A stretch of DNA of 52,957 nucleotides from an uncultured Clostridium sp. (lineage in GTDB: Bacteria; Bacillota_I; Bacilli_A; RF39; UBA660): positions 1 to 52,957 of the forward strand of contig CAZTEJ010000002.1 of assembly GCA_964612605.1 (NCBI GenBank). Reading direction: 5' to 3'. Made by a program: the position numbers and the translations under genes. Below the pieces are notes generated by a model that ran no database searches, had not been told where the DNA came from, and worked only from the letters and a program-made list of their open reading frames with translations. Below, one piece after another: positions 1,766-52,829 of the stretch. Each line of letters starts with the position of its first letter. Within the stretch, counting starts at the first letter, position 1.

Positions 1766-1943
1766 TCTTACACCTCTCTCGATATATAAGCTTTCAAAGG
1801 TGACTCGACCCTTGATTTTAAAAATTTATTTTTTTTGCTGAAATTTTGAAAATTCGCAAACAAATTTTAAACATTTTATCAAAATTTAGTAAATTTTATG
1901 TATTTTCAACCCTTATCAAATCATGCAATCCTTGTAAAATAAT

Positions 1944-4442: not shown

Positions 4443-4465
4443 TTTTATCACCCTCTCAGGTTATT

Positions 4466-4474
4466 ATTATATCA
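4466..4474 (-). promoter_or_regulatory. Extended -10 element (TGATATAAT) upstream of secA
   Basis: The reverse complement of attatatca is TGATATAAT. It lies about 25 nt upstream of the secA start. Confidence 0.4.
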
Positions 4475-4711
4475 TGGAATATTTATAGTGTAAATTAATG
4501 TTAAAGAAAATCAATAAAAATTTTAGGTTGATTGATATATAAATTGTGTAAAGTAAGTGACAATTTATTGCTTTTTTAATAATAAAAAGTTAAAAAAACG
4601 AATTTCGGTAAGAATTTGTTTGTTTTTTATTAATATTTAAGTTATTATAAGTATTGTAATTTAAATTTTAATGTTATATTTATAAGAAAATTTAGTTTTT
4701 CGTTAATTTTA

Positions 4712-4721
4712 CCGATATCGG
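4712..4721. promoter_or_regulatory. Perfect 10-bp palindrome CCGATATCGG, a possible operator upstream of the XRE-family gene
   Basis: Read directly from the sequence. It sits about 12 nt upstream of a TATAAT hexamer (4734..4739) and about 50 nt upstream of the 4774 start. Confidence 0.3.
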
Positions 4722-4773
4722 GAGATATTTTCTTATAATATTTGTTACAATTTATTGGTAAGGAGAGATTTGT

Positions 4774-5013
4774 ATGCTTTTTAAACAAGCTGTAAGTTCT
4801 AGAATTTTAGAATTATGTAAATTAAATAATTATACACCAAATAAGTTAGCTGAGTTATCTGCTATTGCGCCTTCTACTTTGAATGCGATGTTATGCTGTA
4901 AGGTTGAAAATCCTAGTTCAACTAATATTTATAAAATATGCAAGGTATTTAATATTAGTTTAAAAGAATTTTTTAGTTCTGAATTTTTTAACGAAATTGA
5001 TATAATTGATTAG
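4774..5013 (+). CDS. XRE/Cro-C1-type helix-turn-helix protein
   Basis: 79-aa ORF with RBS AAGGAGAG. NYTPNKLAELSAIAPSTLNAML...IYKICKVFNISLKEFF fits an HTH_3 pattern. Confidence 0.7.
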   Translation: MLFKQAVSSRILELCKLNNYTPNKLAELSAIAPSTLNAMLCCKVENPSSTNIYKICKVFNISLKEFFSSEFFNEIDIID

Positions 5014-5067
5014 TTGATATTCTTCAACTTTTTTTATTTTTTATGTATAATTAAGTTAGAGGTAAAT

Positions 5068-5931
5068 ATGAAAAAATTAATTAGTTATATATTTAGTATA
5101 GTTTTTATTTTATTGGTAAGTTTATTTTATTATAGTTATAATACTAGTAATAGTAGTAGTAATAAAGATGTTAAATTAGATTATGTAATTAATGTACATT
5201 TTATTGATGTTGGTCAAGGTGATGCTACTTTTATTGAACTTCCTAATAATGAATGTATGTTGATTGATGCTGGTGAGAGGTCTTATGGTGATGTTGTTAA
5301 AAATTATATAGAGAAATTAGGGTATAGTTCAATTGATTATGTTATTGGTACTCATCCTCATACTGATCATATTGGTGGTCTTGAAAATATTATTAATAGT
5401 TTTGGGATTGGTTCTATTTATATGCCTATGGTTACTTCTAATAGTAAAACTTTTGAAAGTTTAATTAATACTATATCTAGTAAAGATTTAAAAATAAATA
5501 GTGCTAGGGATGATGTTGTTTTATTTGATTATAATAATCTTAAGGGGTATTTTGTTGCTCCGGTTAGTTCTAATTATAGTGATTTAAATAATTATTCGGC
5601 TGTTTTATTACTTAGGTATGGTAATGTTAGTTTTTTATTTATGGGTGATGCTGAGATTTTAAGTGAGAATGAGATAAATGATAATATTGATGTTGATGTT
5701 GTTAAGATTGGGCATCATGGAAGTATTTCTTCTTCTGGTAGTAGTTTAATTAATCGTGTTAGTGCTAGGTATGGGATTATTTCTGTTGGAAAGAATAGTT
5801 ATGGTCATCCTAGTGATGAGGTTATTAGTAGGTGGAGTGATAATGGTACTTATATTTATAGGACTGATATTAATGGAGATATTGTTGTTAATACTGATGG
5901 TAATGAGATTAGTATTAGTGTAGAAAGGTAG
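5068..5931 (+). CDS. ComEC-C-terminal-like metallo-beta-lactamase-fold hydrolase with an N-terminal membrane anchor
   Basis: HFIDVGQGDATFIELP...LIDAG and GTHPHTDHIGG (HxHxDH). The ATG at 5068 is preceded by GAGG. The TTG at 5014 in the ORF track is unlikely to be the start. Confidence 0.8.
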   Translation: MKKLISYIFSIVFILLVSLFYYSYNTSNSSSNKDVKLDYVINVHFIDVGQGDATFIELPNNECMLIDAGERSYGDVVKNYIEKLGYSSIDYVIGTHPHTDHIGGLENIINSFGIGSIYMPMVTSNSKTFESLINTISSKDLKINSARDDVVLFDYNNLKGYFVAPVSSNYSDLNNYSAVLLLRYGNVSFLFMGDAEILSENEINDNIDVDVVKIGHHGSISSSGSSLINRVSARYGIISVGKNSYGHPSDEVISRWSDNGTYIYRTDINGDIVVNTDGNEISISVER

Positions 5932-38695: not shown

Positions 38696-38852
38696 GTTTC
38701 TCCTTATTTATTTAAAATTGTTTGTTATAAATCTTTGTTTGTTATTTTTGTCCTAAATTTTAATTAATTTAAAATCACCCTTTGGTTGTATATTATATCA
38801 TATATGTTTTAAAATGAAATATATAATTGTTAATAAGAAGTAAGTATATGTG

Positions 38853-38878
38853 AAAAAAATCTCAAGTTGTTGAGATTT
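38853..38878 (-). terminator. Rho-independent terminator
   Basis: 9-bp stem aaatctcaa/ttgagattt with a 4-nt loop, followed on the minus strand by a T-run that overlaps the descending arm. Confidence 0.6.
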
Positions 38879-38955
38879 GATTGAGAGGTATATTTTGATT
38901 ATTTAATATTTTTACTTTTGTACCTACAGTATGTCATTTTGTGGAACTATAGTAA

Positions 38956-39194
38956 TTAATTAACTTTATTAAATAATTCGTCTACAATTAAATCTTTTGA
39001 ATGTAAATTATTATTTTTACCTAATAATAAATCTTCATAGAATTTAATTAAGAAAGTATTGTCTTCTCTAAATGGATGTATTTGCCATATTCTACTAGAA
39101 AAACATGTTATATTATTAATTACATCAACTATAATCATTTCATTATAGTTTTTATTTCATACTTTGATAGTATTTGTTCTACTATATTATTCAT
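38956..39194 (-). pseudogene. Truncated, frameshifted stub with a degenerate Fic-like motif
   Basis: MNNIVEQILSKYEIKTIMK-stop, then in another frame ...RIWQIHPFREDNTFLIKFYEDLL (compare the Fic motif HPFxxGNGRxxR). It is far too short for a Fic domain. Confidence 0.35.
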
Positions 39195-39777
39195 TTTGAT
39201 TCCTCCTCATGTATCTTGCCAATAAATTTATGTTTGTAGAGTGATATAATTCGCTTAATCTTTCTATCTTATCAATATTTAATTTGTTAAATGTTTCTTC
39301 ATCTATTCTTAAGTCACTAAATAACATATTTTCTAAATTAGTATAGTTGTTTAATGGTGCTAATGTATATAGCTTATCACATAATGCTTTTTCAGGTGTT
39401 GCAATTTGATATGAATAATTATTTTCTTCTTTTAATAATATTTCTTTTGGGTATGCTAAAACAGGTATATCTCTATATATAAATGTCCCAAAATTTGTAT
39501 AGTATTCCTTTTTCTTTTTCTTATCACATGTAGCACATGTGATTGTAGATACTCTTTCAGGTATTAAACCATAATATGATAAAGCATATTCAAAAGATAT
39601 ATATGAAGGACCATATATACTTCCTGCTAATAAATAGCTAGGTGTATTAGGATCCGTTTCATATAATCCATTAATTATTTTGAATATTTTACCTTCTTTA
39701 ACTTCCCTAGCTAATTAAGTGTCTTTATTAGAATATTTATCATAATTGTTTTTAGCTAATCTACTTGTGATTATCAT
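39187..39777 (-). pseudogene. AbiEi-family (type IV TA antitoxin-like) gene with an in-frame TAA
   Basis: MIITSRLAKNNYDKYSNKDT-TAA-LAREVKEGKIFKIINGLYE...YISFEYALSYYGLIPERV... is 196 codons in one frame. The stop is at 39717..39715. It is missing from the ORF track because no start codon follows the stop. Confidence 0.6.
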
Positions 39778-40077
39778 ATTTTCACCTCTAATTACTATTT
39801 AGCGATAATTTGTGGTGAAAATCAAGGAAATTTGTATTCAGTATATTATGTAAATTACTTAACTTTTATACTGTTTTAGTATCATTTTCTCATTCAAAAT
39901 TGTGCATTTAGTACTGAAAATACTCATTACTTGTCATTTTACACTTAATTGTGCAATTTATTTAGAATTTAATACTTTAAATTATCTTTATAAAATTATC
40001 CATTCCCCGTTTTGTTCTATATTATATGTTATTTGTTTAATTGGATTTGTAGATGTTGAATAATCATCTTATATATT

Positions 40078-40719
40078 TTATTTTTTTAATACCAATCTTT
40101 TTGGATTAGAAGTATAATATCTATCTAACAATGATATTGCTTGTTCTTCTGTTTGCAATCTTATTTTTTCTTGAGTATTTTCTAATGAGTGTAATTGCTT
40201 CATTATTTCAAACAATTCTTCACTATTTCCAAATGGATTAATTTGAAGTGCAATTCTATATAAAAGTCCAGGATGACATGTTTGTAAACATTCCTCACTT
40301 ATTAAATTTACATCTGAGTTATTAAAACTTTTTCTGCCTCTAGAGTATGAATCTTTAAATACTTCTTCAAACATTTGACTTTCCAATGTTTTTTTATTGT
40401 ATCCTGTTAATGATGGAATCATACCTCTAAAACTTTTAGAAAATTCTATATATTCACTATCTAATGCTTCTTCTATTCTATTAAATCTATTGGTTAATCC
40501 ACAATGAACACATTCTACTTCGTTGGCCTCTTTATAATAATCTGTAGAATGATATCCAAATATTTCTTTTCCTTGTCTAAGTTTAACAAATAAGTGATTG
40601 CAATTTCTTATTTCTTCTTGTCTTTTTTGTGTGATTTCAGTAGGAGCAATTCTTAATTTTCTCATACATTGTCCAAATTCATCGTTTATTGGCAATTGTT
40701 TTATTTCTATTTCATTCAT
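40078..40719 (-). CDS. Hypothetical protein with a CxH...CxxC cluster
   Basis: 213-aa ORF with an AGGAGAAAG RBS. NCNH...ECVHCG is a possible zinc site. No family recognised. Confidence 0.5.
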   Translation of the reverse strand: MNEIEIKQLPINDEFGQCMRKLRIAPTEITQKRQEEIRNCNHLFVKLRQGKEIFGYHSTDYYKEANEVECVHCGLTNRFNRIEEALDSEYIEFSKSFRGMIPSLTGYNKKTLESQMFEEVFKDSYSRGRKSFNNSDVNLISEECLQTCHPGLLYRIALQINPFGNSEELFEIMKQLHSLENTQEKIRLQTEEQAISLLDRYYTSNPKRLVLKK

Positions 40720-40810
40720 AATTTTCTTTCTCCTTTTATTATATTTGACAAACTATCTCATTTGTGAATATTTACTTAATACTAATTGTTTTGATTTTGG
40801 TTGACCTTTT

Positions 40811-41122
40811 TTATATTGTAGTTGTAAAAAAATCCTTTTGAACTTTCGTAAACCCATTACTATTTTTATAATATCGTATATTTTTCCAGGAACTAACTGA
40901 ATATCTTCCATACCTCTTATAACAAAATTCGCTATGTGTCATTTTTGATGTGGTGTAATATTTATTTTCTTTCTCAAGTCTACTTTGAATATGTTTATCT
41001 GTATAAGAAGTATGTATCTTATTTGTTTCAATATCCTCAAATGTTTGATATTCAATAATCTGTTTCTTGATAACAAATACTACAGATAATCAAATATCTT
41101 TCAGTACATACAAGAATTCCAT
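40811..41122 (-). pseudogene. 103-codon ORF interrupted by an in-frame TGA at codon 11
   Basis: MEFLYVLKDI-TGA-LSVVFVIKKQIIEYQTFEDIE...SSWKNIRYYKNSNGFTKVQKDFFTTTI. TGG is used for Trp later in the same frame. Confidence 0.35.
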
Positions 41123-41874
41123 TGGATTATATTATTTAAAATTCTAATATTTGTAATATTATCCCCAAAGGAAGCATTTTTTCTCCTTACACATATATTC
41201 TAACATATTAGTTTGTTATTTTTACTCTAGTTTTTGTAGAGAGTGAATGTTTCTTATTATTTGTAACTATTCAGACTTAATACCATTAAAAAGTAAAGAG
41301 TAATACAAATTGCTCTTTTATATTTCTTTTTATAGATGTTTTTATAATTAGCATAGTCTTGAGCTGCATCTATACTTTTAAATCTATTAGATATTTTTAT
41401 TTTTAAGTATATCAATTTCTTCTAATTTATTTTTATCTCTTCATTTTTATTTTGGATAGTTGTATTAAATTTTTCTATTTCTTCAAATAATCTAGCTTGA
41501 CAATCTCTTTGTCTTCCTATTCTTTATCACTATCCCTTGTATATTGATTTTCTCATATAAAGGAAAAAATAGTATCACTTCTTGACGCTATTTTACTTTT
41601 ATTTGAAATTTATAGTTTGAATAGTTATATATTTTAAGCAAGATATCTATTGATGAAATAGTATTTTTTTATATTTTATTGATATTAATACTACCTCATT
41701 TCAACATTTACATTTAAAAATCTACTTTTTTAGTAATAATATTTGATTTGACATTTCATTAAGTTTTTTCAATTATTTAGAACTCCTTATAATTCTTTTT
41801 ATTTTCTTGTTGTTCATATCTTGCATATGTAGCCACCATTGTATCATTTAGATTCTTCATATTATTTATCCTTA

Positions 41875-42690
41875 CTACGAATTAGCTTCAAAGTATTCTA
41901 TATAATCTTCGATATTCCCATCTTTCTTTTTATTGCTGTTATTAACTTTCTTATATTCTAATCCAAAACTTTCAACTAAATCTTTAAATCCTACATCAAT
42001 TAATAGTTTTTCCACACTAGAATTATAATGATTTAATCTAAAAGTATAGAATAATTCTACTTGTTTCTTACTATTTTTATTGATAATTTTTGTTAATTCA
42101 TTAGCACTATCTATTTCTTGTTCTATCAACATATTTAATTTATTATGATACTTTTTAGTATTAAAAATAATATCAGGTATTTCTTTAATTTTTTCATCGG
42201 TTTTACACCAAGTACAGATGGAAACAATAAATAGAATGCACATACAACTCGCAAGTATCCATGCTAAATAAACAATAAATTCAGGACCTTCACAAACTGA
42301 TGCAGATAAAGCAATAGATAATGCCTCGCTAATAACGGAACCAATAGACCATTTTTTAGCATTTTTTGACTTTATAATCAGTTCTTCTTTTTTCTTTTGA
42401 CCTTCCTTATTATTAAAATAACAATCAGCAGATATTTTATCGCCTAATTCATTTATATTATATTTTTTTGCTATATCCATTACCTCATAAAGTCCAAGTT
42501 CTGAGACTTTTTCGTTATAATGAAGTAAAAAGTCATACTTACTACTCATTAATAAATGTTCATCTCTTTGTTTTAGTAATTCATTTGTAAATTTTGAATT
42601 AATGTAAGTATCATATGTTTCCTTACTAATTCCTATATCATCAAATAGTCTTAAGATACGCATCTTTTCTTCATGTTGAAGTTTATTCAT
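41875..42690 (-). CDS. Two-TM hypothetical protein. It is probably the 3' part of a longer gene whose 5' end (to 42862) is frameshifted and carries a TAG.
   Basis: Central hydrophobic pair SIGSVISEALSIALSASV / FIVYLAWILASCMCILFIVSI. Upstream, an RBS plus ATG at 42862 opens MDIKNKFLSRDGQYYDTLTEDSRASIAWDEK. This joins the 271-aa frame only through a 1-nt shift and a TAG at 42726..42724. Confidence 0.5.
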   Translation of the reverse strand: MNKLQHEEKMRILRLFDDIGISKETYDTYINSKFTNELLKQRDEHLLMSSKYDFLLHYNEKVSELGLYEVMDIAKKYNINELGDKISADCYFNNKEGQKKKEELIIKSKNAKKWSIGSVISEALSIALSASVCEGPEFIVYLAWILASCMCILFIVSICTWCKTDEKIKEIPDIIFNTKKYHNKLNMLIEQEIDSANELTKIINKNSKKQVELFYTFRLNHYNSSVEKLLIDVGFKDLVESFGLEYKKVNNSNKKKDGNIEDYIEYFEANS

Positions 42691-42874
42691 TTCTAATTCA
42701 TAATTCTTTTGAATTTTCTCTTGCTATAATTGATAGTTTAATTGATTTTGTTGTTCTTTTGCAAATTCATTTTTCGTCCCAAGCAATACTTGCTCGTGAA
42801 TCTTCCGTCAAAGTATCATAATACTGTCCATCTCTACTTAAAAACTTATTTTTAATATCCATTTTCTAATTCTC

Positions 42875-44170
42875 CTAACTTTTTAGTATTTCATTAATTG
42901 AATTAACCCTTTTAAGATTATTATCATTATATAAATATGGTAATTCCTCTTTAATTAACTCAATTAATTCTAAAATTTCTTCTGGTTTATTATTAATACT
43001 ATAATAATAATAATTTTTACTACCAGCAGGAATGCTCAATGTTCCATACTGTTTAATGGTATGATAACTTTTTGTTCTAGCTTCTGCATATTCTTCTTGT
43101 GAATAAACAAATTTGTTTTTATTTATCTTGTCTAATTGTTTGTAGTCCTCTATAGGAACTTTTGAAATTATATCCTTGAAAACCTCATATATAAACCTAG
43201 TATCAGGGTAATACTTATCATTTAATTTGTTTCTTTCTCTAATATTTTCAGCAATTCTATTCATTGTGTCAAAATATTCTTTTTCTATATTTATATCGTT
43301 CATTTTTATTAAGTTTATAAATAGTATTCTTAATAATTTTTGATTTTTTTCAAAGAAAGATTTAACATAATCATCCTTTTTATCTTTTAATAAACCATCT
43401 ATGAATTCTTTTATAATTTTTTTATTCTTGTTCCATACTTGTAATGTAAGTTTTTTTCCTTCAGTTGTTATAGGTATATAATTAATATCAAATTTTTCAT
43501 TAAAATATAAACCTGAAAAACTATTAATATATTCATTTATTGTAAGTGATAGGTTATTATCGTAAGATTTATAACTACATGGTTCATATACATAATTAAT
43601 TAAGTCTTGATATGTAAATTTTAAGTAATGTTCTTCATCTGATATTGGATCATCTTTACTTAAACTTAGATATAAATAAGTTTTGGTATAAGAATTGTAA
43701 TCAGCTAATTTTTCTAAATCTATTCTATAATTTTTACATTGTTCATCATGTTCTAAACTATCAAGTTTTGCTTCTAATGCTATAAGATATTGCTCTTTTT
43801 TCTCATTTTCTATAACATCGAACTTTATAAGTAAATCAATTCGCCCACTTGGTAACTTCTCTTGAATTTTTATCTCAATATTGGATAAATCACTACTTGA
43901 CATACAAATATTTTTAATATGTGAAAATTTATTATCTATATCTTTGCTTGCGATTAGTTCGCAAAGTAGTTGTAAAGGATAATCACCTAAACCATATGGA
44001 TTGTTTTCATTTAATAATGAGGCTAAAAAATTAGTATGTACATCTTCAAATCTAAAGAAATTTATTTGTTCCAATATACTTGTTTTACCATAATATTTTT
44101 CAAATTCAATCCATTCTTTACTATTTTTTAGTTCGATCAAATTGTTAAACATATCCATTAAGTTAGTCAC
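42875..44170 (-). CDS. PD-(D/E)XK nuclease family protein
   Basis: FEDVHTNFLASLLNENNPYGLGDYPLQLL, then GRIDLLI...YLIALEAKL (D...ExK) and EHDEQCKNY. Confidence 0.65.
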   Translation of the reverse strand: MTNLMDMFNNLIELKNSKEWIEFEKYYGKTSILEQINFFRFEDVHTNFLASLLNENNPYGLGDYPLQLLCELIASKDIDNKFSHIKNICMSSSDLSNIEIKIQEKLPSGRIDLLIKFDVIENEKKEQYLIALEAKLDSLEHDEQCKNYRIDLEKLADYNSYTKTYLYLSLSKDDPISDEEHYLKFTYQDLINYVYEPCSYKSYDNNLSLTINEYINSFSGLYFNEKFDINYIPITTEGKKLTLQVWNKNKKIIKEFIDGLLKDKKDDYVKSFFEKNQKLLRILFINLIKMNDINIEKEYFDTMNRIAENIRERNKLNDKYYPDTRFIYEVFKDIISKVPIEDYKQLDKINKNKFVYSQEEYAEARTKSYHTIKQYGTLSIPAGSKNYYYYSINNKPEEILELIELIKEELPYLYNDNNLKRVNSINEILKS

Positions 44171-44288
44171 CTCAATGACATTATAGCACTTTCTGGTGTA
44201 TCCTCCAATAATTTGCAGTGTAATTTACAAATTTTTATAGTATAAAAAATAATACCTTGTAGTTGCTAAAATTATATTAGTTGAACTT

Positions 44289-44525
44289 ATGAAAATAATT
44301 GATAAAGAAAATTATGAGCAAATTTGGAATTCAATCTCTATGAAAAATCTACATAAAGTAATAATAAGCAATGATTATACGCTCACTAAGGTGGCTATCA
44401 ATTCTAAAGTAAGTGATTCTACTATAATTTCTTATATACCCCTATCTCTTCCGCCTTTAATTAGCATTGCAGACTTTCTAAATGTGAACATTGATTATTT
44501 ACTTGATCGAACTAAAAATAAATAA
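44289..44525 (+). CDS. XRE-type HTH protein, divergent from the PD-(D/E)XK gene
   Basis: YTLTKVAINSKVSDSTIISYI...LISIADFLNVNIDYLLDRT. Confidence 0.6.
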   Translation: MKIIDKENYEQIWNSISMKNLHKVIISNDYTLTKVAINSKVSDSTIISYIPLSLPPLISIADFLNVNIDYLLDRTKNK

Positions 44526-44535
44526 ATTATAACTC

Positions 44536-44578
44536 TGACAAATCTAATGAAATATTTATATTTTCATTAGATTTGTCA
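44536..44578. repeat. Perfect 17-bp inverted repeat (hairpin) 11 nt after the HTH stop
   Basis: tgacaaatctaatgaaa - 9 nt - tttcattagatttgtca. There is no clear U-tract. Confidence 0.7.
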
Positions 44579-44649
44579 TGATAATAATGACTATTTCTAA
44601 ATTTATGCACATAAAATTACTTTATAATCTTCAAACCTATAAATTCAAC

Positions 44650-44672
44650 AAAAAGTGGAGCCTTTCGGCTCC
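44650..44672 (-). terminator. GC-rich GNRA-loop terminator ending the defence operon
   Basis: The minus strand reads GGAGCC-GAAA-GGCTCC followed by ACTTTTT. It is conspicuously GC-rich against an AT-rich background. Confidence 0.7.
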
Positions 44673-44794
44673 TTCAGGGGGCTATTATATTAAAAAAGAG
44701 GATTGTTTAAAATCCCCGTAATATCGACATATAACTCATATAGAGTTTAATAAAATTTAATCAAAAATTGATAAATTTATCTTAATTTGATGGG

Positions 44795-44831
44795 TAGCTG
44801 ATGGGTAGAAATGCTTATCAGCTAATTTTTT
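44795..44831 (+). terminator. Plus-strand-oriented intrinsic terminator directly behind the TIR gene
   Basis: Stem tagctgat/atcagcta with a 14-nt loop, followed by A+TTTTTT on the plus strand. It overlaps a tandem 9-nt repeat gatgggtag (44789..44797 and 44800..44808). Confidence 0.5.
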
Positions 44832-44864
44832 ATAATGACAATATGACATTATATAGATATGCAG

Positions 44865-45374
44865 TTATATCTCATTATACTCTTTCAATCTTCTTGAATT
44901 ATCAATCAATTGATTTCTCTCTGTTCTTGCATAAAATGCATCATTTATAATTTGAATTAATTGATTTTCATTTTGTGGATAATTATATATTTTAGCATAT
45001 CCAGATTTATAATTATCCAAAAGTCTAGCTGGAATAACTGTATTACAAAAATCACATCCAGGTAAAAATATTCCAACTAATCCACTTCTTTTATTATTTT
45101 GATCATTTCTTAATGTAGAAGCTATTTCCCAATCTACATATTTTCTTTTATATGTTTCATTGCCAATCATAACAATAGTAACTGTAGAATCCGACAGATA
45201 ATTTTCGCGTATAACCCTCATTGTATAATCGACATTATTACTGTTTATAGATGTTCCATACTCATTTCCTATAATTCTTCTTATAAAAACATTATTATTA
45301 GAATAATTATTTACAAAATTTGATACTACTTTATCATCTTTATGATGATATGATATAAAAACTTTATGTTGCAT
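44865..45374 (-). CDS. TIR-like protein (DUF1863/ThsB-type)
   Basis: HKVFISYHHKDD at the N-terminus, STVTIVMIGNETYKRKYVDWEIASTL (candidate catalytic Glu in WEI). 169 aa. Its ATG lies 1 nt after the upstream stop and its RBS is inside the upstream gene. Confidence 0.75.
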   Translation of the reverse strand: MQHKVFISYHHKDDKVVSNFVNNYSNNNVFIRRIIGNEYGTSINSNNVDYTMRVIRENYLSDSTVTIVMIGNETYKRKYVDWEIASTLRNDQNNKRSGLVGIFLPGCDFCNTVIPARLLDNYKSGYAKIYNYPQNENQLIQIINDAFYARTERNQLIDNSRRLKEYNEI

Positions 45375-45375
45375 T

Positions 45376-45981
45376 TTATTTTCTCCTTATTTCATCAAGT
45401 TTATTAGTTAATTCAACCACTTTAATATTTACTTTCCACATATCTTCAACAATTTCTTTATATTTAGGATACCTCTTTTGAATTTCTTGTGGTTCTTCAT
45501 CAGAATTTTTTTTCAATTCTTTTTCATACCACTTTCTATATCTAGCTTGATATTTTGTCAAATGGCTTCTTAAATCAGTATTTAATACCTCAATTAAAAG
45601 GTTAACTAATTTATTTACTTCCTCATCGTTTTTTCCAGCCAAATCCTTTATAATTGTCCTAAACTGATTATAAATAGAATACCATGAGTCGTAAACTTCA
45701 ACAATAACATCATTTTCTGGATCAAAAGGTAATGCTAATTTTCTTGTAATTAATTCAGTCCATGCTTTATGAGCTATTATTTTTACTTCCTTATTACATC
45801 CAATATCGACGGTAACTCCTTTAATACAAATTTGTGATACTTTTATATCTTTTAATTTTTTAACTTTATTTATTATCTTAATTATGACTAAAACAAACAA
45901 AATAATTAATGGTAACAAAATTATAACATTATCTAAGCTAATTGTTATTTTATATTTTGATAAATATTTCAATATTTCCAT
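45376..45981 (-). CDS. Single-pass membrane protein with an unrecognised helical C-terminal domain
   Basis: TM helix VIILLPLIILFVLVIIKII. Strong RBS GGGAGGTG before the ATG at 45981 (the ORF track starts at 45996). No family recognised for AHKAWTELITRKLALPFDPENDVIVEVYDSWYSIYNQF. Confidence 0.6.
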   Translation of the reverse strand: MEILKYLSKYKITISLDNVIILLPLIILFVLVIIKIINKVKKLKDIKVSQICIKGVTVDIGCNKEVKIIAHKAWTELITRKLALPFDPENDVIVEVYDSWYSIYNQFRTIIKDLAGKNDEEVNKLVNLLIEVLNTDLRSHLTKYQARYRKWYEKELKKNSDEEPQEIQKRYPKYKEIVEDMWKVNIKVVELTNKLDEIRRK

Positions 45982-46002
45982 ACCAACACCTCCCAATTTT
46001 AA

Positions 46003-47796
46003 CTATAAAGAATAATAATACTCTTTTATTTTTTTTGCCATTAATATTCTACGTTGTTTTAAGAATTCATCAAAATCTTCAACAGTCATATTATCAAATC
46101 CTTCTGGAATACAATTAAGTTTTAAGTTTGATTTTAATATTTCCTTATCAACAATTGACCCGATAGTTGCAATTCCATTATTACATTGATTATTCACTTC
46201 TAACATGTAAGTATTTGGAGCTTTATTAGTTATTTGCAAATTTATTTCAGTTTGAATTAATGCAAAATTTGCAATTTGATTGTAAATGCTTTTATTGTTT
46301 TTACCATTCTTTTGTAAATAATCTTTAGGAAATATATGATGTACATCTCCTCTACCTTCAACTAATGTTCTGACCTTCATATCTTTAGATAAGAATGCAC
46401 TATCATTTAAAGCAATTTGAGCTATAAGATAAGTTTTCCAATAAGGGGAACTAGCTACTGGAGTATTAAAGTTTTCTACTAAAATACTATCCCAGAATGC
46501 ATCACCTAATCTTCTGTCTAACTCATCATTAATATATTGAATTAAATCTTCTGCTTCATTTAATCTTCTTATATCCAAGTCAAATTGAGATTCTGGAGAA
46601 GAAGTATATCTTTGAGTAATAATTGACATTATTACCCATCTCTTAACTAATTTTTCAATTACATCAGGAACTACATTCCTTTCTCTTAATAATAAGAATA
46701 AAATATATCCAAAATTTAATACATTTTGTGATCTAATTAATGAATCGTCAATTATACCTGCAGATTTTAAAATCATTACATATCTTTCAAAGTTAGTTTG
46801 ACTAACAAATGCTTTTACGCCATCATATAATTTTTTATAACTATCTTCTACAATATCTTCTCTATATTCTCTTGTTTCAAAGTCACGACCAGATAGTAAG
46901 CTTACTAAATCTTGTAATTTACCTCTTTTAAACTTATATGTGAATGCTACTCTTAAAACATCTACATAACTTGGTAAATATAAATCTTCATTTTTATCTT
47001 TTATCCATGTTATCTTATTAAAAATATCCTTAGTACTAAATGCAGAATCATTATTTTTTATATTATCAAAATCTACAGGTGTCTTAGCAAAGTGACAGAA
47101 ATAATCAATAGTTTTTCTAATATCATTACCATCATATTTTTCGTTAACACTAATCTTACTCATTGCAAAATCTGCTTGAGATAAAACTACACCAGCTGAA
47201 TTTATTCTAACAAATATTTCTGTTACTGCTTCAATATCTAACATTGAACCTAACTCAATACGACCAATCATTATATTTTTAATAGATTGTAATTTTGTTA
47301 TTTTTTTACTTACTTCATTTGCATCAATATTAAATTTATCTGCATAACTTCTTACAAATTCAAAAGCATTAAATCCAGATTTCATTACTTCTGCTATATC
47401 TGGTATCCACTCTTCTTGTTTTTCAATTGCGGGATTACTTGTTTGAAACTCTTCTGTTTGGAGATTAAATGCAATTTTTATTCTTTTCTTTTTATAATCA
47501 CTATCTAGTACTTCTTTGCCAAGTAATGAAGCTGTTAAAGCTGTAATTCTTTGCTGCCCATCTATCAATATTTGTTTTCCTTCAGACGAAGAGCCATCTT
47601 TTAATTTTACATCAGGACTTTTCCATGTGATTATGTAACCAACAGGGTACTCTCTATATAAAGAATCAATTAAATCTCTAACTTTTGTTGTATCCCATAC
47701 AAATGGTCTTTGTATTTCTGGAATCGCTATAGTTCCATCACTAACATATCCAAGTAACGTTTCAACACTAACATTATTTACATCAAATTTTGCCAT
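46003..47796 (-). CDS. GmrSD-family protein (DUF262 + DUF1524 His-Me finger), a putative type IV restriction enzyme
   Basis: IPEIQRPFVWDTTKVRDLIDSLYREYPVG and LIDGQQRITAL (DUF262). The C-terminal GDVHHIFPKDYL...NQIANFALIQTEIN fits DUF1524. Confidence 0.85.
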   Translation of the reverse strand: MAKFDVNNVSVETLLGYVSDGTIAIPEIQRPFVWDTTKVRDLIDSLYREYPVGYIITWKSPDVKLKDGSSSEGKQILIDGQQRITALTASLLGKEVLDSDYKKKRIKIAFNLQTEEFQTSNPAIEKQEEWIPDIAEVMKSGFNAFEFVRSYADKFNIDANEVSKKITKLQSIKNIMIGRIELGSMLDIEAVTEIFVRINSAGVVLSQADFAMSKISVNEKYDGNDIRKTIDYFCHFAKTPVDFDNIKNNDSAFSTKDIFNKITWIKDKNEDLYLPSYVDVLRVAFTYKFKRGKLQDLVSLLSGRDFETREYREDIVEDSYKKLYDGVKAFVSQTNFERYVMILKSAGIIDDSLIRSQNVLNFGYILFLLLRERNVVPDVIEKLVKRWVIMSIITQRYTSSPESQFDLDIRRLNEAEDLIQYINDELDRRLGDAFWDSILVENFNTPVASSPYWKTYLIAQIALNDSAFLSKDMKVRTLVEGRGDVHHIFPKDYLQKNGKNNKSIYNQIANFALIQTEINLQITNKAPNTYMLEVNNQCNNGIATIGSIVDKEILKSNLKLNCIPEGFDNMTVEDFDEFLKQRRILMAKKIKEYYYSL

Positions 47797-47811
47797 TTTA
47801 TCACCACTTTC

Positions 47812-50800
47812 CTACATTTCTTTTATTGAATTTTCAATATGTTCAATTTCTTCATTAGTTAAGTCATACTTTAAATATAATTGTTGATCTATTTCTTTAA
47901 TAGACTTATTCCAATCTACATCAGAGTTTTCAGTGAAATCTTGAATAGGAACTAATTCAAAAGTTTTTGAGGTAGCATCTTGACTACTCTTTAATAAGCT
48001 ATGTAAGAATCTTACAAATTTTGTTTTCATATATTTTTCTAGATTTTTAGCCGAATCTTCATCAAGTCCTAAATCGGCACCTACCACTAAATATGACTCC
48101 GTACATATTTCATTTGGCTTTCCTATAAACGAATTCAAGTTATCATCACTAAGCTCCGTACCAATATTATCAGCACGTGGAATAAATACTTTCCATTTGT
48201 TAATCCATTCTAAATGCGTAATTACATATTTTTTTTCAACAAAACCCTTTTGCCTTCCTTTTGCATAGCATACAACAGGACTTAACATATTATCAATAGA
48301 ATTTTTATAGTTTTCCGTTTTAGAAAAATAACCTCTTAACCCAAATGGTCTTAATGAAGAAATATAATTAGCTAAACTATTGAAATCTAAATTATTTACT
48401 TTTTCAATAATTGTGAATGCTGAACCATCACGTATAAAAACATCTTTATTTTCAAATTTCATAGGTCTTCTAACATCGTTTATTATACTATTATTTTCAT
48501 ATGTAATAACATTAACTAAATCATTAATATTGTTATAGTCCAAGTCTCTTAAAAAATAACATACGCCACCCCTAATATTTGTGTTTGGGAAAATAGAATC
48601 GGGAGTTAAACAATCATGTAATTCCTTCACGTGAAAATCATTTAACATTCCATTTCTAAACTCATCTAACCCTTTTCCTCCTACAAACCATCTAGTTGGA
48701 ATTATTAGTGAAGTAAACCTTGAACTTAATTGATTTGCAATTGCAACAAAATATTGATAAATTGGTTTTGCACTAGCTTGTGCACCACCATCTGCTTCTT
48801 GATATGGGGGATTCCCAACAACAATATCAAACTTCATTTTTCCATCTCCTTCCTTGTAAAATAAATTATCTTCTAATAAGATTTCAGACATCTTTTTATT
48901 TTGTAGAAGATATCCTTTTATTCTATTTAAATCCAAATTACCACCATTTCTAATATCCAGCAAATCATATGAAGTAAAATTTGTAGCAATATTATCGATA
49001 TTCAAATTCAAAATTTCATATATTTTTCTTGTGAATTCGTATGCTATTTTAGATGTCGGTATAGAATATAAACAATTGCTAATCAATTCTTCTTTTACAC
49101 CTAATTCTTTTAATTTAGAATATAATGCTATAGTAAATTCTCCTTCTTTACTAGCAATATCTAATATTTTTGAACCCGAAATTACTACTTTTACTATATC
49201 ACTATCTAGTATCATTGATATCATTTGTTTGCAAACTTTATTAGGTGTAATTATTTCTGAATCTGATAGTTTATCAAACTTATTTATAGCAACTAATGCT
49301 CTCTCTATCTTATCTAAAGATTCATCATTCGATAATTTGTTAATATTTTGTATTTTATAATCTAATTGACTTAAAACAAATGGGTCAATATTTTCATGTA
49401 TTAATTTTAATATATTTATATCTAGTTCTAAATTCTTTAAAATTCTTCGATTGTTAATATCTTTACAAGTATCAATAATATTTTTTAAAGAATGTAATTC
49501 ACTACTAGATAAGAAAGAATAAAATAAAATTCTCACATAATAAGTTTTAAATTTATTAACAATAATTTTCTTTAAATCATTATCATTAGAATTATTTGTT
49601 GATGAATTACTTGGAGAATTATTGTCTTGATTTTCTGATTCTTCATCAAATTCAAACGAAAGTTCTTCAAAGTCATCAGTGTCATCATCAGTATTGGTTA
49701 ATTTTAAGCCACCTTTTGAACCAAGCTCAGCCTGTTTTAATATTATTTCTCTTATTTCATCAATATTTAGCAACTTAAAATCAACTGGTAAATCATTAGA
49801 TTCGTCAAGGACGCTTCTTGAATTTGAATAATTACTTATGTAATTCATAATATCTATTGCTGTTATTTGTCTAAGTTTATTACTATCAAAAACAATAATT
49901 GGCGAAATATTTAATTCATTTTCTAATCTATCTTTCAATTTATCATTTCCATTATTTTCTGTATTAACATTATAAATTAAAGACTTGGTTTCTTGCATTA
50001 TAAACATCCTATTTGGATTAAAATCAACAAGTAATGTTTGTGGTTTTTTATTATATTTAATAATATCACCATCTTCAGATATATAATCTTTAACATATTG
50101 ATTTTGTAATCTAAATATAGCCTGATCATACTCTTGTGGAGATGATGTATCTTTTAAATAAATCATTGTATCCCATTCTTCAACAGTGCTTCCAGTAAGC
50201 ATCCTATTGACTGTTAAAGTTATTGTTTTTTTATCGTTCTTTTCACAATTTTTTATTGCATATTTTACATCATTTATACTTTTATAAGAGTTTGACTCAT
50301 CCACTCCTGATATATTAATAATTTCATAATCATTTAAATTCTTAAATTTATCTTTATTATCTTTAATTAATTTTTCAAAAGAATCACATGAAGCACGAAA
50401 TGGTAATACTACGACAATATGCCTACACATTTTTCCTTCTTTTATTTTATCGAAGTTTAAAAAGCCAAGTACTTCATCATCATTCTTGCTACCATCAATA
50501 ACTTCTAATAAATCTAATATTTCTGACTCATATATAAATTTTTTATGTTTTCCTTCAGAATCTTTTGTTATAGACATAGGTCTAAATAATTCAGAAAAAG
50601 CATATGTCACTCCTGAGTTCTTTAATTCTATCAATTTTTGTCTAATTGATTTATTTGGATTAAATGCAAACCTAATCATTTGTGGAAATCCATAATACGG
50701 ATTTTCCCATTCTTTATATGAATCATCTAATATATGTTCTTTATCCCAATCTAATTGAGCTTTTACAATATCAGAAAATTGATAAAAACCGATTATATCT

Positions 50801-51840
50801 TCTTTTTCAAATTCAGAACTCATCAAAATTCTATATGGAGTACCTGACAAGTGAATTCTAACTTTGGATTTTAATACTTTAACAATATCATCAGCGTCAT
50901 CAAAATTTATAATTTCATCTTCTCTAGTATCTCTTACATCTCTTAATACAGCTCCGAAGTTCTCAGCTCTTGCACCAAAGTGTGTTTCATCAATTAATAA
51001 CAAATCTATTTGATTATTGAATAATTCTTTATGTTTTTCTTTTATTTTTGTTCCTTGTAAATCTTGTAATGTTAAAAACATAACTACTTTTCTGCCTGTC
51101 TCTAACTTATGTTTTATTATATCGTTATCCCTTAAAAGTTGATCGTTCTCAATAAAATCATAATCTTTAAAATTATCAGCACTTTGTACAGTTTTCTTCC
51201 ATTCTTCTTTTACATCAGCTTTTGCCGAAACAATTAAAACAACATTTGCATTCATTTCTAAAGCACAACACATCGATGTAAAACTTTTACCGAATCTCAT
51301 TACTGCATATAGTAATAAATTTGTTCTACCTGCTTCATATGCTTTTTTAAAGTTTTCTACAACTTCCTTTTGATTAGGTCTTAAATTCCACATACCAGTA
51401 GAAGCATATTCAGTTATTACTCTTAAACTATCTTTAGCATTGTAAAACTGGTATTTCATAAGATTTTCGTCGAAATCATTCTTTATGTCTTTGATAGCCT
51501 CGTCAATATCAACTATAGAAGTATCTTTAAAAAACTCATTTGAAAAATAAATTCCTTCATCTATATCGGATGATTTTAATCTCGTTTTTTGCAAATTATG
51601 TTCTAAAAATTGATGTACTGAATAATCTCTAAAAAATATATCATCTGATACCGTAGCTTTAGTATCATATTTTTTCTCAAGTTCAGGGTAATACTTTTTC
51701 CATTCATCAAGTCTTATGGATACGGGTCTATAGGTATCACCAACCTTTATATAATTTGGTATTGTATTAGTAGTAAAAGCATATATATGTGGTTCAACAC
51801 GTCCAACAATAATTTTATCTAACAAACTTAAATCTCTCAT
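47812..51840 (-). CDS. 1342-aa fusion: T5orf172/GIY-YIG-like N-domain + SF2 (ResIII-type) helicase + gamma-class N6-adenine DNA methyltransferase + a C-terminal putative target-recognition region
   Basis: N-domain: HIYAFTTNTIPNYIKVGDTYRPVSIRLDEW...VHQFLE...NEFF. Helicase: MRFGKSFT, LLIDETHFG, LSGTPYR, QAIFRLQN. Acidic/Asn-rich linker: DDDTDDFEELSFEFDEESENQDNN. MTase: ITPNKVCKQM, ILDIASKEGEF, FDIVVGNPPYQ. Confidence 0.8.
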   Translation of the reverse strand: MRDLSLLDKIIVGRVEPHIYAFTTNTIPNYIKVGDTYRPVSIRLDEWKKYYPELEKKYDTKATVSDDIFFRDYSVHQFLEHNLQKTRLKSSDIDEGIYFSNEFFKDTSIVDIDEAIKDIKNDFDENLMKYQFYNAKDSLRVITEYASTGMWNLRPNQKEVVENFKKAYEAGRTNLLLYAVMRFGKSFTSMCCALEMNANVVLIVSAKADVKEEWKKTVQSADNFKDYDFIENDQLLRDNDIIKHKLETGRKVVMFLTLQDLQGTKIKEKHKELFNNQIDLLLIDETHFGARAENFGAVLRDVRDTREDEIINFDDADDIVKVLKSKVRIHLSGTPYRILMSSEFEKEDIIGFYQFSDIVKAQLDWDKEHILDDSYKEWENPYYGFPQMIRFAFNPNKSIRQKLIELKNSGVTYAFSELFRPMSITKDSEGKHKKFIYESEILDLLEVIDGSKNDDEVLGFLNFDKIKEGKMCRHIVVVLPFRASCDSFEKLIKDNKDKFKNLNDYEIINISGVDESNSYKSINDVKYAIKNCEKNDKKTITLTVNRMLTGSTVEEWDTMIYLKDTSSPQEYDQAIFRLQNQYVKDYISEDGDIIKYNKKPQTLLVDFNPNRMFIMQETKSLIYNVNTENNGNDKLKDRLENELNISPIIVFDSNKLRQITAIDIMNYISNYSNSRSVLDESNDLPVDFKLLNIDEIREIILKQAELGSKGGLKLTNTDDDTDDFEELSFEFDEESENQDNNSPSNSSTNNSNDNDLKKIIVNKFKTYYVRILFYSFLSSSELHSLKNIIDTCKDINNRRILKNLELDINILKLIHENIDPFVLSQLDYKIQNINKLSNDESLDKIERALVAINKFDKLSDSEIITPNKVCKQMISMILDSDIVKVVISGSKILDIASKEGEFTIALYSKLKELGVKEELISNCLYSIPTSKIAYEFTRKIYEILNLNIDNIATNFTSYDLLDIRNGGNLDLNRIKGYLLQNKKMSEILLEDNLFYKEGDGKMKFDIVVGNPPYQEADGGAQASAKPIYQYFVAIANQLSSRFTSLIIPTRWFVGGKGLDEFRNGMLNDFHVKELHDCLTPDSIFPNTNIRGGVCYFLRDLDYNNINDLVNVITYENNSIINDVRRPMKFENKDVFIRDGSAFTIIEKVNNLDFNSLANYISSLRPFGLRGYFSKTENYKNSIDNMLSPVVCYAKGRQKGFVEKKYVITHLEWINKWKVFIPRADNIGTELSDDNLNSFIGKPNEICTESYLVVGADLGLDEDSAKNLEKYMKTKFVRFLHSLLKSSQDATSKTFELVPIQDFTENSDVDWNKSIKEIDQQLYLKYDLTNEEIEHIENSIKEM

Positions 51841-51854
51841 GTGTACCTCACTTT

Positions 51855-52829
51855 CTATTTAATTAAAGAAATAAACTTTATACTTCTATTTGTTTTCCAA
51901 TTCATTACTTTGCAATAAATTCCATTATGATTTTTATTTTTATTTTTTTTACAGCCTAAGCACTCTTCAATGTGTTCAATTTCGCCAAACAATGTTAGCT
52001 CAACTTTTTTCTCATTTTTACAACTATTTGGAATAACAAATTTCAAACCATCCATTTGCCAAATATTCCAACTAATAATTTCTGCCACTTTTTCAACTAA
52101 TTCTAATCCCGGCTTTTTACTAAATTTATCTTTATAATAATCAATAAATGTGTATAGCAAATTTTCTCTTGCAATTAATACATTATCTCCTTGCCAATCA
52201 TATCCATAAACACTTTTCATTGCTTTGATAGACCATTCTACCCATTCGGACTCATCATCTATATTTTCAGAAACTATTCTTAGTTTTCTATCTAATAATC
52301 CAATTCTATCTTTTATTTTTATTGTTTTACCTGTCACTGAATCATATCTACTGACAAGATAAGGGGCTTCTCCACATGAAATTTCCAATCTAGTACTGTT
52401 AATATAATCTTGCCATGATTTATTTTCCGGAAAAGTTATTTTATCTTCAATGGTTTCCCAGCTATCTTTATCAGATTTATTAAACACATTTTTTCTTCCA
52501 AACCAAGCATCATCTACTAAATTATTTTGGTTGTTACATACCCACGACGGGGTGAAAACTTCGGCATTTTCTTTTATTCTCTTATTTTTTTCTTCATTTG
52601 TTTTTTTTGATCTAGGTTTTATTATTTCTCCATAATTACCAGTTATTTTTTCGATAGTTATTTCATCACTAAAACCAAAACCATGGCCATATTGTTGGTA
52701 ATTATCTGTTGCCCAAATTATATTCTTTTTACTGCTATGATCAAATAAAAGAATATTTAAAATTTGCATGTCAATTAGTAATAAATTTTCTTCTTTTATA
52801 TCAACTAACTCTCTAAACAAAGTTTTCAC
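51855..52829 (-). CDS. Methyltransferase-like protein lacking a (D/N/S)PP(Y/F/W) motif, with a C-terminal Cys cluster
   Basis: AEVFTPSWVCNNQNN (motif X-like), RLEISCGEAPYLVSRYD (motif I-like position) and YGYDWQGDNVLIAREN, but no NPPY-type motif anywhere. C-terminal C-x18-C-x2-C-x12-C. The start may be the TTG at 52820, since the GTG at 52829 lies inside the RBS GGGAGGTG. Confidence 0.6.
   Translation of the reverse strand: MKTLFRELVDIKEENLLLIDMQILNILLFDHSSKKNIIWATDNYQQYGHGFGFSDEITIEKITGNYGEIIKPRSKKTNEEKNKRIKENAEVFTPSWVCNNQNNLVDDAWFGRKNVFNKSDKDSWETIEDKITFPENKSWQDYINSTRLEISCGEAPYLVSRYDSVTGKTIKIKDRIGLLDRKLRIVSENIDDESEWVEWSIKAMKSVYGYDWQGDNVLIARENLLYTFIDYYKDKFSKKPGLELVEKVAEIISWNIWQMDGLKFVIPNSCKNEKKVELTLFGEIEHIEECLGCKKNKNKNHNGIYCKVMNWKTNRSIKFISLIK

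What the first reader, a model, noticed from the sequence alone, without database searches (positions are those of the whole stretch)
44865..45996. Translationally coupled single-pass membrane protein + ThsB-like TIR pair without a recognisable ThsA: candidate new Thoeris-like module
The 169-aa protein has the DUF1863/ThsB-type TIR hallmarks: VFISYHHKDD, and a conserved Glu in YVDWEI.

In described Thoeris systems the TIR sensor is paired with an effector carrying SIR2+SLOG (type I) or TM+Macro (type II) domains. Here the partner is a ~200-aa protein with one TM helix and an all-helical, Gly-poor C-terminal domain. By eye that domain looks like none of SIR2, SLOG or Macro.

The TIR start lies 1 nt after the partner's stop, and its RBS (AAGGAG) is embedded in the partner's last codons. 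A membrane effector triggered by a TIR-made nucleotide signal is the natural hypothesis, but it is only an inference.
Basis: inference. Interest (0 to 1): 0.8.

Follow-up and report, generated by a model that had tools for sequence, protein, structure and literature searches.

The report
Type VI Thoeris pair (ThsG–ThsB)
The membrane protein and TIR protein are a real, conserved two-gene anti-phage module, but it is a type VI Thoeris system, a kind tested experimentally in a December 2025 preprint, so this is a new member of a known kind.

Summary
On the minus strand, a 201-aa single-pass membrane protein (45376-45981) is followed after one nucleotide by a 169-aa ThsB-type TIR protein (44865-45374). 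The TIR gene's AAGGAG ribosome-binding site lies inside the last codons of the upstream gene.

The membrane protein matches no Pfam or PADLOC model and has no significant structural neighbour. It nevertheless belongs to a large family: 922 clusters at 50% identity, found in 277 species genomes from Bacilli to Patescibacteria and archaea. This family sits next to a TIR gene almost everywhere.

The decisive result is a full-length match (36% identity, E 6e-38) to the effector Ga0209396_100023225. That protein is the "DUF6650 and TM" ThsG of a type VI Thoeris system, which Yirmiya et al. (bioRxiv 2025.12.03.692087) showed to defend E. coli and to arrest growth when 2'cADPR is supplied. The two TIRs are 38% identical (E 9e-34).

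The claim that it is new is not. Still inferred: that this copy uses 2'cADPR and that it acts by damaging the membrane.

Side finding: in 13 of 80 loci ThsG sits beside Nmad2/5-hmdU-kinase/TIR clusters that resemble the validated NTTI (DS-4) system.

The parts
45376..45981 (-). thsG-like effector gene. It encodes 201 aa: a short N-terminal segment, one TM helix (about residues 16-44), a beta hairpin (48-61) and a helical bundle domain (64-200) labelled 'DUF6650' in the literature.
   Evidence: ORF. Single hydrophobic peak. AF2 pLDDT 90.3. 36% identity and E 6e-38 over the full length to the validated ThsG of Ga0209396_1000232. Profile-profile match to E. coli ThsG at 98.7%. There are 17 invariant polar or aromatic residues: E76, T79, R80, D91, Y97, S99, W100, R108, N134, R138, H140, L141, T142, R149, W151, Q165, Q168.
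44865..45374 (-). thsB gene. It encodes a 169-aa TIR protein, the predicted phage sensor and signal synthase, with catalytic Glu83 in YVDWEI.
   Evidence: Pfam ThsB_TIR at E 3.3e-17. PADLOC ThsB and PDC-M50B. 38% identity and E 9e-34 to the validated type VI ThsB Ga0209396_100023224. E83 is invariant in alignment A3.
45383..45388 (-). Shine-Dalgarno AAGGAG for thsB, inside the last codons (Arg-Arg) of thsG. The stop and the start codon are separated by 1 nt (45375).
   Evidence: Sequence read directly.
45987..45994 (-). Shine-Dalgarno GGGAGGTG for thsG, 5 nt upstream of the ATG at 45981. Only 21 nt separate the ATG from the stop of the upstream GmrSD gene.
   Evidence: Sequence read directly.
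44657..44717 (-). Two terminator-like hairpins with T-runs on the minus strand (44698-44717 and 44657-44672), about 150-200 nt downstream of thsB. They probably mark the end of the transcription unit.
   Evidence: Consensus scan found 4 terminator-like sites against 0.2 expected in shuffles. This is a pattern match only.

Best explanation
The pair is a type VI Thoeris anti-phage system, with the effector gene thsG upstream and the TIR gene thsB downstream.

Shown here by homology: ThsB is a ThsB-family TIR with the catalytic Glu. ThsG is a full-length homologue of an experimentally validated type VI effector. The two genes form a conserved, co-directional unit in defence islands.

Inferred from the published homologues:
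- On phage infection, ThsB converts NAD+ into a cyclic ADP-ribose isomer, most likely 2'cADPR (1''-2' gcADPR).
- The signal binds the cytoplasmic helical domain of ThsG. Binding probably occurs in positively charged pockets between protomers of a ring-shaped homo-oligomer.
- The N-terminal TM helices then compromise the membrane, causing growth arrest or death before the phage completes its cycle.

The invariant R80, R108, R138, H140, R149, W100, W151 and Y97 are candidates for the ligand pocket. The 1-nt stop/start spacing with an embedded ribosome-binding site suggests coupled translation of effector and sensor.
For: - Effector homology: 36% identity, E 6e-38, residues 8-198 of 201 aligned to L099:3513-4157. 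This is the gene next to TIR Ga0209396_100023224 on the scaffold listed in Table S2 as 'DUF6650 and TM, type VI, Defense: Yes'.
- All 17 invariant family residues are kept in that validated protein (read).
- The paper reports that 2'cADPR, but not 3'cADPR or cADPR, arrests growth of E. coli carrying that very system. It models ThsG as a hexameric tube with positive inter-protomer pockets.
- TIR homology: 38% identity, E 9e-34. The catalytic Glu is conserved.
- Remote link to E. coli ThsG, which sits next to a TIR 98% identical to the validated ACN001 TIR: hhalign 97.5% for the single protein and 98.7%, E 2.5e-16 profile against profile.
- Gene association: in 80 species genomes, a TIR lies within 200 nt on the same strand in 59, elsewhere in the locus in 14, and is found by Pfam in 2 more. 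Four loci are cut by contig ends.
- Reciprocal association: 60 of 80 loci holding TIRs related to the validated type VI TIR carry this effector family.
- Defence-island context: a type IIG R-M gene, GmrSD and a PDC-S26-like nuclease flank the pair in the window. R-M, Mrr and RloB/AAA_21 genes flank it in other loci.
Against: - No experiment exists on this copy.
- Identity to the validated system is only 36-38%, so signal identity is extrapolated.
- TIRs at 47-50% identity to the window TIR pair with SLATT effectors. The paper assigns that pairing to type VII Thoeris, which signals with canonical cADPR.
- Neither the window protein nor any of 40 relatives reaches Pfam DUF6650 (PF20355) with hmmscan. 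The validated ThsG proteins fail too, so this criterion does not discriminate.
- The mode of toxicity of ThsG is unresolved even in the paper. The hexamer and pocket were not modelled here.
Confidence: 0.85

Rival explanations
1. The architecture is the same (ThsB signal synthase plus ThsG membrane effector), but this Bacilli/Tenericutes-type subfamily uses a different TIR product. Candidates are canonical cADPR, 3'cADPR or an undescribed ADPR derivative.
For: The TIR is only 38% identical to the validated 2'cADPR-system TIR. Closer TIR relatives (47-50% identity) are coupled to SLATT effectors in Actinomyces and Streptomyces, and the paper links TIR-SLATT systems to canonical cADPR. The paper also notes that TIRs of one cluster can pair with different effectors.
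Against: All 17 invariant residues of the effector family are shared with the 2'cADPR-responsive ThsG. This argues for a conserved ligand site. The paper found 2'cADPR for type VI systems from distant hosts, Gammaproteobacteria and Bacillus.
Confidence: 0.2
2. The TIR is an NAD+-depleting effector rather than a signal synthase. The membrane protein would then be its sensor, anchor or regulator, with no diffusible signal.
For: Some bacterial TIRs act as NADase effectors, for example in CBASS, Pycsar and TIR-pAgo, as listed. Tight translational coupling would also suit a stoichiometric complex.
Against: The TIR is of the ThsB family. For the homologous system, exogenous 2'cADPR alone triggers toxicity, and the sponges Tad1 and MoTad2 abolish type VI defence, which shows a diffusible signal. 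Gene order and spacing vary between loci. ThsG also occurs with unrelated TIR subtypes such as TIR_2 and DUF1883-TIR, which is hard to fit with a specific physical complex.
Confidence: 0.05
3. The pair is an inactive remnant, or has a role other than phage defence, such as a toxin-antitoxin-like addiction module of the island.
For: There is no direct functional evidence for this copy. In the paper about half of the cloned candidates, including one 'DUF6650 and TM' system, gave no defence in the test host.
Against: Both ORFs are intact with strong ribosome-binding sites. All invariant residues and the catalytic Glu are kept. The pair is conserved at 76-82% identity in four related MAG genomes. 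It lies between other defence genes.
Confidence: 0.05

Closest known systems
Type VI Thoeris, TM-containing form (ThsB + ThsG 'DUF6650 and TM') from metagenomic Gammaproteobacteria scaffold Ga0209396_1000232 (Yirmiya et al., bioRxiv 10.64898/2025.12.03.692087)
   Same: Both are two-gene operons of a ThsB-type TIR and an effector of about 200-215 aa with one N-terminal TM helix and the same helical domain. The effectors align over their full length (36% identity, E 6e-38) and the TIRs likewise (38% identity, E 9e-34). All invariant effector residues are shared.
   Different: Gene order is reversed: thsG lies upstream here, whereas the TIR lies upstream in the validated system. Here the genes are 1 nt apart, while there they overlap. 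The host lineage is a low-GC Bacilli/Tenericutes-like organism rather than a gammaproteobacterium. This copy has not been tested experimentally.
E. coli type VI Thoeris (strains S1 and ACN001; ThsG WP_000286098-like, 243 aa)
   Same: The effector domain is homologous (hhalign 98.7%, E 2.5e-16, 138 columns). Both share the LTK(H/W/Y)Q..(Y/F)R(R/K)W core motif and a ThsB-type TIR partner.
   Different: The E. coli protein has a longer N-terminal region of about 70 residues with more than one hydrophobic stretch (read from the sequence). It also has an insertion in the domain. Its TIR has a long Cys-rich insertion. Pairwise similarity is detectable only with profiles. It resides in a P2-like prophage hotspot.
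Type VII Thoeris (ThsB + SLATT effector ThsH)
   Same: It is a TIR plus membrane-effector two-gene system. TIRs 47-50% identical to the window TIR are paired with SLATT proteins.
   Different: The window effector has no SLATT/DUF4231 match. It has one TM helix and a different cytoplasmic domain. The published type VII signal is canonical cADPR.
Type II Thoeris (ThsB + TM-Macro effector)
   Same: It has a TIR sensor and a membrane-spanning effector activated by an ADPR-derived signal.
   Different: The window effector has no Macro domain. The type II signal is His-ADPR.

Membership tests
Type VI Thoeris (ThsB-ThsG) | A ThsB-family TIR protein with the catalytic glutamate | tested here: met
   PF08937 at E 3.3e-17. 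E83 is invariant and aligned with validated type VI TIRs and B. cereus ThsB.
Type VI Thoeris (ThsB-ThsG) | Effector homologous to an experimentally validated ThsG | tested here: met
   36% identity, E 6e-38, full length, against the effector of Ga0209396_1000232. hhalign 98.7% against the E. coli ThsG family.
Type VI Thoeris (ThsB-ThsG) | Effector annotated as Pfam DUF6650 (PF20355) | tested here: inconclusive
   No PF20355 hit for the window protein or 40 relatives at E<=1. The validated ThsG proteins also give none. Only one of 39 E. coli-type relatives has a precomputed PF20355 hit. Published DUF6650 labels seen in DefensePredictor's supplementary tables come from HHpred, which is not available here.
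Type VI Thoeris (ThsB-ThsG) | TIR and effector form a conserved adjacent operon in defence islands | tested here: met
   59 of 80 loci have an adjacent co-directional TIR, and 75 of 80 have a TIR somewhere in the locus. Defence genes flank the pair in the window and in other loci.
Type VI Thoeris (ThsB-ThsG) | The TIR produces 2'cADPR on infection, and 2'cADPR activates effector toxicity | not testable with these tools
   This needs LC-MS and growth assays. It was shown only for homologues in the paper.
Type VI Thoeris (ThsB-ThsG) | The effector forms a ring-shaped homo-hexamer with positively charged inter-protomer pockets | not tested
   Only a monomer model could be made. No multimer prediction is available.
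Type I Thoeris | SIR2-SLOG effector (ThsA) | tested here: not met
   No SIR2 or SLOG hits in the partner or in the neighbouring genes that were scanned.
Type II Thoeris | TM plus Macro-domain effector | tested here: not met
   No Macro hit by Pfam. The fold is an all-helical bundle without a significant PDB match.
Type VII Thoeris / CBASS SLATT effectors | SLATT (DUF4231) 2-TM effector | tested here: not met
   No SLATT or DUF4231 hit for 40 family members. SLATT neighbours of related TIRs are readily detected.

The most novel reading that the evidence does not exclude
Two readings remain open. First, the single-TM ThsG family may not be restricted to one signal or one sensor. It is paired with at least four TIR subtypes: ThsB-like, TIR_2 with an N-terminal domain, DUF1883-TIR, and the TIR of NTTI/DS-4-type clusters. 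In 13 of 80 loci it sits beside Nmad2/5-hmdU-kinase/thymidylate-synthase/TIR clusters. It could therefore be a portable membrane effector that couples TIR signalling to nucleotide-modification defence systems. Second, the window's Bacilli/Tenericutes-type subfamily may respond to a cADPR isomer other than 2'cADPR.
Probability: 0.2. Interest if true: 0.5.

Novelty: new member of a known kind. Interest (0 to 1): 0.25.

Why it matters
For this window it matters little. The pair should be annotated as thsG/thsB (type VI Thoeris) within a defence island.

Three practical points follow:
- Current Pfam and PADLOC (2023) models miss this effector completely, even the experimentally validated members. 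Pipelines that rely on them will keep reporting such pairs as orphan TIRs or new systems.
- The single-TM ThsG family is broad. It comprises 922 clusters at 50% identity and occurs in 277 of 185,579 species genomes, including Patescibacteria and archaea. The paper reported 255 operons, with only two in archaea.
- ThsG recurs next to NTTI/DS-4-type Nmad2/5-hmdU-kinase/TIR clusters. No paper in the searched library holds both terms Nmad2 and TIR, and Yirmiya et al. do not mention Nmad or the other cluster genes. This could be followed up.

Tried and rejected
- Pfam and PADLOC scans of the TM protein and of 40 relatives returned only noise, such as GAT, Occludin_ELL and KinB_sensor below cut-offs.
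- A PDB sequence-profile search returned only coiled-coil noise.
- Foldseek of the pLDDT-90 model against PDB and BFVD gave nothing at E<0.2. The top hits were generic four-helix bundles (FAT domain, de novo designs), so no fold assignment was made.
- I tried to confirm a DUF6650 label locally with validated ThsG proteins and with the one relative that has a precomputed PF20355 hit. hmmscan never reports PF20355.
- I looked for close TIR relatives in the paper's Table S1, but the stored copy is truncated and only the selected systems were searchable.
- A plasmid search with a Bacillus-type (TM-less DUF6650) TIR did not yield a usable bona fide DUF6650 effector. The link between the single-TM family and the TM-less Bacillus ThsG therefore remains untested here.
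- SLATT, Macro and SLOG identities were considered and rejected (see the membership test).
- The TTG start at 45996 (206 aa) was rejected in favour of the ATG at 45981, which has a strong ribosome-binding site and agrees with the 201-aa homologues.

Full report
**1. The observation**

On the minus strand, the ORF listing gives a 169-aa ORF at 44865-45374 and an ORF at 45376-45996. The latter starts at a TTG. The biologically likely start is the ATG at 45981 (201 aa). It is preceded by GGGAGGTG, and the closest homologues are all 201 aa.

The junction reads ATA AGG AGA AAA TAA A ATG. One base separates the stop codon from the start codon, and AAGGAG lies within the last codons of the upstream gene.

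The 169-aa protein matches Pfam ThsB_TIR at E 3.3e-17 and several PADLOC ThsB models. Glu83 of YVDWEI is invariant in an alignment with validated Thoeris TIRs.

The 201-aa protein has one hydrophobic segment. Its AlphaFold2 model is confident, with mean pLDDT 90.3. It shows a TM helix at 16-44, a beta hairpin at 48-61 and a helical domain at 64-200.

**2. What the membrane protein is not**

It has no Pfam or PADLOC match. The same holds for 40 diverse relatives scanned one by one. Nothing resembles SIR2, SLOG, Macro or SLATT.

A profile search of PDB sequences found nothing meaningful. Foldseek against PDB and BFVD found only generic helical bundles at E>0.2.

**3. The family and its genomic association**

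The word-indexed search found 137 relatives from Firmicutes, Bacteroidota, Vibrio, Acidobacteria and archaea, none with a Pfam domain.

An exhaustive HMM search with a 40-sequence alignment found 922 representative clusters at E<=1e-3 and 240 at E<=1e-30.

The alignment shows a variable N-terminus and TM segment followed by a strongly conserved domain. The domain has 17 invariant polar or aromatic residues: E76, T79, R80, D91, Y97, S99, W100, R108, N134, R138, H140, L141, T142, R149, W151, Q165 and Q168.

Look-ups of individual homologues all showed an adjacent ThsB_TIR gene. These were in Methanoplanus, Winogradskyella and two Firmicutes metagenome contigs.

A scan of one genome per species found relatives in 277 species, and 80 loci were fetched. 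Using an HMM built from the window TIR's relatives:
- 59 of 80 loci have a TIR within 200 nt on the same strand. The TIR is upstream in 44 and downstream, as in the window, in 15.
- 14 more loci have a TIR elsewhere in the locus.
- Of the 7 loci without a hit, two have an adjacent TIR_2-type gene by Pfam and four are cut by contig ends.
- One (L029) lies next to an nSTAND1-WD40 gene instead.

Homologues of the TM protein are almost always TIR-associated.

**4. Comparison with what is known**

[quoted passage not shown] The paper defines Thoeris types V-XI.

Type VI is a TIR plus ThsG. ThsG is a protein labelled DUF6650 (PF20355), "in some cases" with N-terminal TM helices. According to the paper:
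- The type VI TIRs make 2'cADPR on infection.
- 2'cADPR, but not 3'cADPR or cADPR, arrests growth of cells carrying the system.
- ThsG is modelled as a hexameric tube with positively charged pockets between protomers.
- The mode of toxicity is left open.

Table S2 lists four "DUF6650 and TM" systems. Three of them were defensive in E. coli.

I retrieved two of them. The first is the E. coli system. Its locus was found through a plasmid copy whose TIR is 98% identical to the TIR of strain ACN001, and then in 42 complete E. coli genomes. Its 243-aa effector is related to the window family by profile methods:
- hhalign 97.5% for the single sequence.
- 98.7%, E 2.5e-16 over 138 columns for profile against profile.
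- The core motif is shared: LTKHQNNYRRW in E. coli against LTKYQARYRKW in the window protein.

The second, and decisive, case is the paper's own metagenomic scaffold Ga0209396_1000232, fetched as L099. The gene directly after the validated TIR encodes a 214-aa protein with a single TM helix. It aligns with the window protein over residues 8-198 at 36% identity, E 6e-38, and it keeps all 17 invariant residues. The two TIRs are 38% identical over their full length, E 9e-34.

This scaffold's system is the one for which 2'cADPR-specific toxicity in E. coli is reported, along with the TM-containing hexamer model.

In the reciprocal direction, 60 of 80 metagenome loci carrying TIRs 57-100% identical to that validated TIR also carry an effector of the window's family. 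In 52 of them the effector is adjacent.

**5. The DUF6650 label**

Local hmmscan never reports PF20355. This holds for the window protein, the validated scaffold effector and the E. coli ThsG.

Only one of 39 E. coli-type relatives has a precomputed PF20355 hit. In the supplementary tables of the DefensePredictor paper, the DUF6650 assignments come from HHpred.

I therefore treat the Pfam criterion as inconclusive. Membership rests on direct homology to validated proteins.

**6. Mechanism**

Shown here:
- The pair consists of a ThsB-type TIR with its catalytic Glu and a full-length ThsG homologue.
- The two genes are tightly coupled and conserved as a unit.
- The pair lies in a defence island.

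Inferred from the homologues:
- Infection activates ThsB to make a cADPR isomer, most likely 2'cADPR.
- The signal binds the helical cytoplasmic domain of oligomeric ThsG.
- The TM helices then damage the membrane and stop growth.

The main uncertainty is the identity of the signal. TIRs 47-50% identical to the window TIR are paired with SLATT effectors, and the paper links that pairing to canonical cADPR. Against this, the complete conservation of the effector's invariant residues with the 2'cADPR-responsive homologue favours the same ligand.

**7. Context**

The window is chromosomal. It carries SecA, RNase R and a U32 peptidase, and its G+C content is about 27%.

From about 36 kb onward it is a defence island. 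It holds:
- an AEP-TOTE primase-helicase at 36350-38695;
- a PDDEXK_4 / PDC-S26-like nuclease at 42875-44170;
- thsG and thsB;
- a GmrSD gene at 46003-47796;
- a 1342-aa type IIG restriction-modification enzyme at 47812-51840.

The IIG, GmrSD, thsG and thsB genes are packed on one strand. The gap between GmrSD and thsG is 21 nt.

The same four-gene block is found in the closest relatives, four uncultured Bacilli/Tenericutes MAGs. There ThsG is 81-82% identical, ThsB 76-77% and GmrSD 89-91%. More distant pairs sit in unrelated defence contexts, so the two-gene pair is the conserved unit.

**8. Verdict**

It is a divergent, untested member of type VI Thoeris.

Interest is low to moderate. It stems mainly from the annotation gap and from the breadth and partner diversity of the single-TM ThsG family. 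That diversity includes its recurrent placement beside NTTI/DS-4-type Nmad2/5-hmdU-kinase/TIR clusters.

Noticed in passing
L003/L085, L048, L050, L051, L057, L058, L063, L069, L074, L079, L083, L086, L089 (ThsG at about 4001-4600 in most of L018-L097): [quoted passage not shown] This gene set resembles the 'NTTI' / DS-4 system validated in E. coli by DefensePredictor (PMC13092281 supplement), which lacks ThsG. In several loci the NTTI-type TIR is the only TIR near ThsG. Yirmiya et al. do not mention Nmad or the other cluster genes, and no paper in the library holds both Nmad2 and TIR.
   Followed up: partly
window 36350-52829: This region is a defence island on a chromosomal backbone. It holds an AEP-TOTE primase-helicase (36350-38695), a PDDEXK_4 / PDC-S26-like nuclease (42875-44170), GmrSD (46003-47796) and a type IIG R-M enzyme (47812-51840). 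Unannotated ORFs lie at 40078-40719, 41875-42690 (which has an internal hydrophobic stretch), 51855-52829 and on the plus strand at 44289-44525 (78 aa). GC skew changes sign at about 40 kb although the genes stay on the minus strand.
   Followed up: partly
L018-L021 (uncultured Bacilli/Tenericutes MAGs), positions 2-5120: The four-gene block of type IIG R-M, GmrSD, thsG and thsB is conserved in the closest relatives. The type IIG match is seen only in L019 and L021 (74% identity); in all four loci GmrSD is 89-91% identical, ThsG 81-82% and ThsB 76-77%. The block may move or be transcribed as one unit.
   Followed up: partly
P0393, P0395, P0405, P0417, P0420: Some members of the same effector family lack the TM helix. 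They carry a soluble N-terminal region of 100-180 aa with no Pfam match instead. This parallels the paper's remark that TM-less ThsG proteins exist with an unknown mode of toxicity.
   Followed up: partly
L029:3842-4474 and L029:170-3826: This is the only fully flanked ThsG locus with no TIR detected. ThsG follows a 1218-aa nSTAND1 NTPase with WD40 repeats. It may be a different sensor for the same effector, or a chance neighbour.
   Followed up: no
L028:2905-3705, L031:2661-3773, L039:2743-3873, L069:4741-5742: ThsG is also paired with other TIR architectures. These are DUF1883-TIR together with a second ThsB (L028 and similar Clostridium loci), and TIR_2 proteins of 330-376 aa with an N-terminal domain that has no Pfam match.
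   Followed up: partly
L017:2042-3390 (E. coli APEC E18005 chromosome); L013:814-1702 (plasmid p13TMH22-1): The E. coli type VI pair lies just upstream of phage portal and terminase genes, with a DinI-like gene further upstream, in what looks like a P2-like prophage cargo site. It occurs in 42 of 5,426 complete E. coli genomes. In the plasmid record the effector reading frame is only 90 aa (versus 243 aa in the chromosome) and the TIR reading frame is split into two ORFs.
   Followed up: partly
window 45376-45981 and L099:3513-4157, L017:2042-2773: There is an annotation gap. Pfam-A hmmscan and PADLOC-DB v2 give no hit for ThsG, even for the experimentally validated proteins. The window TIR's best PADLOC hit is PDC-M50B rather than a ThsB model.
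   Followed up: yes
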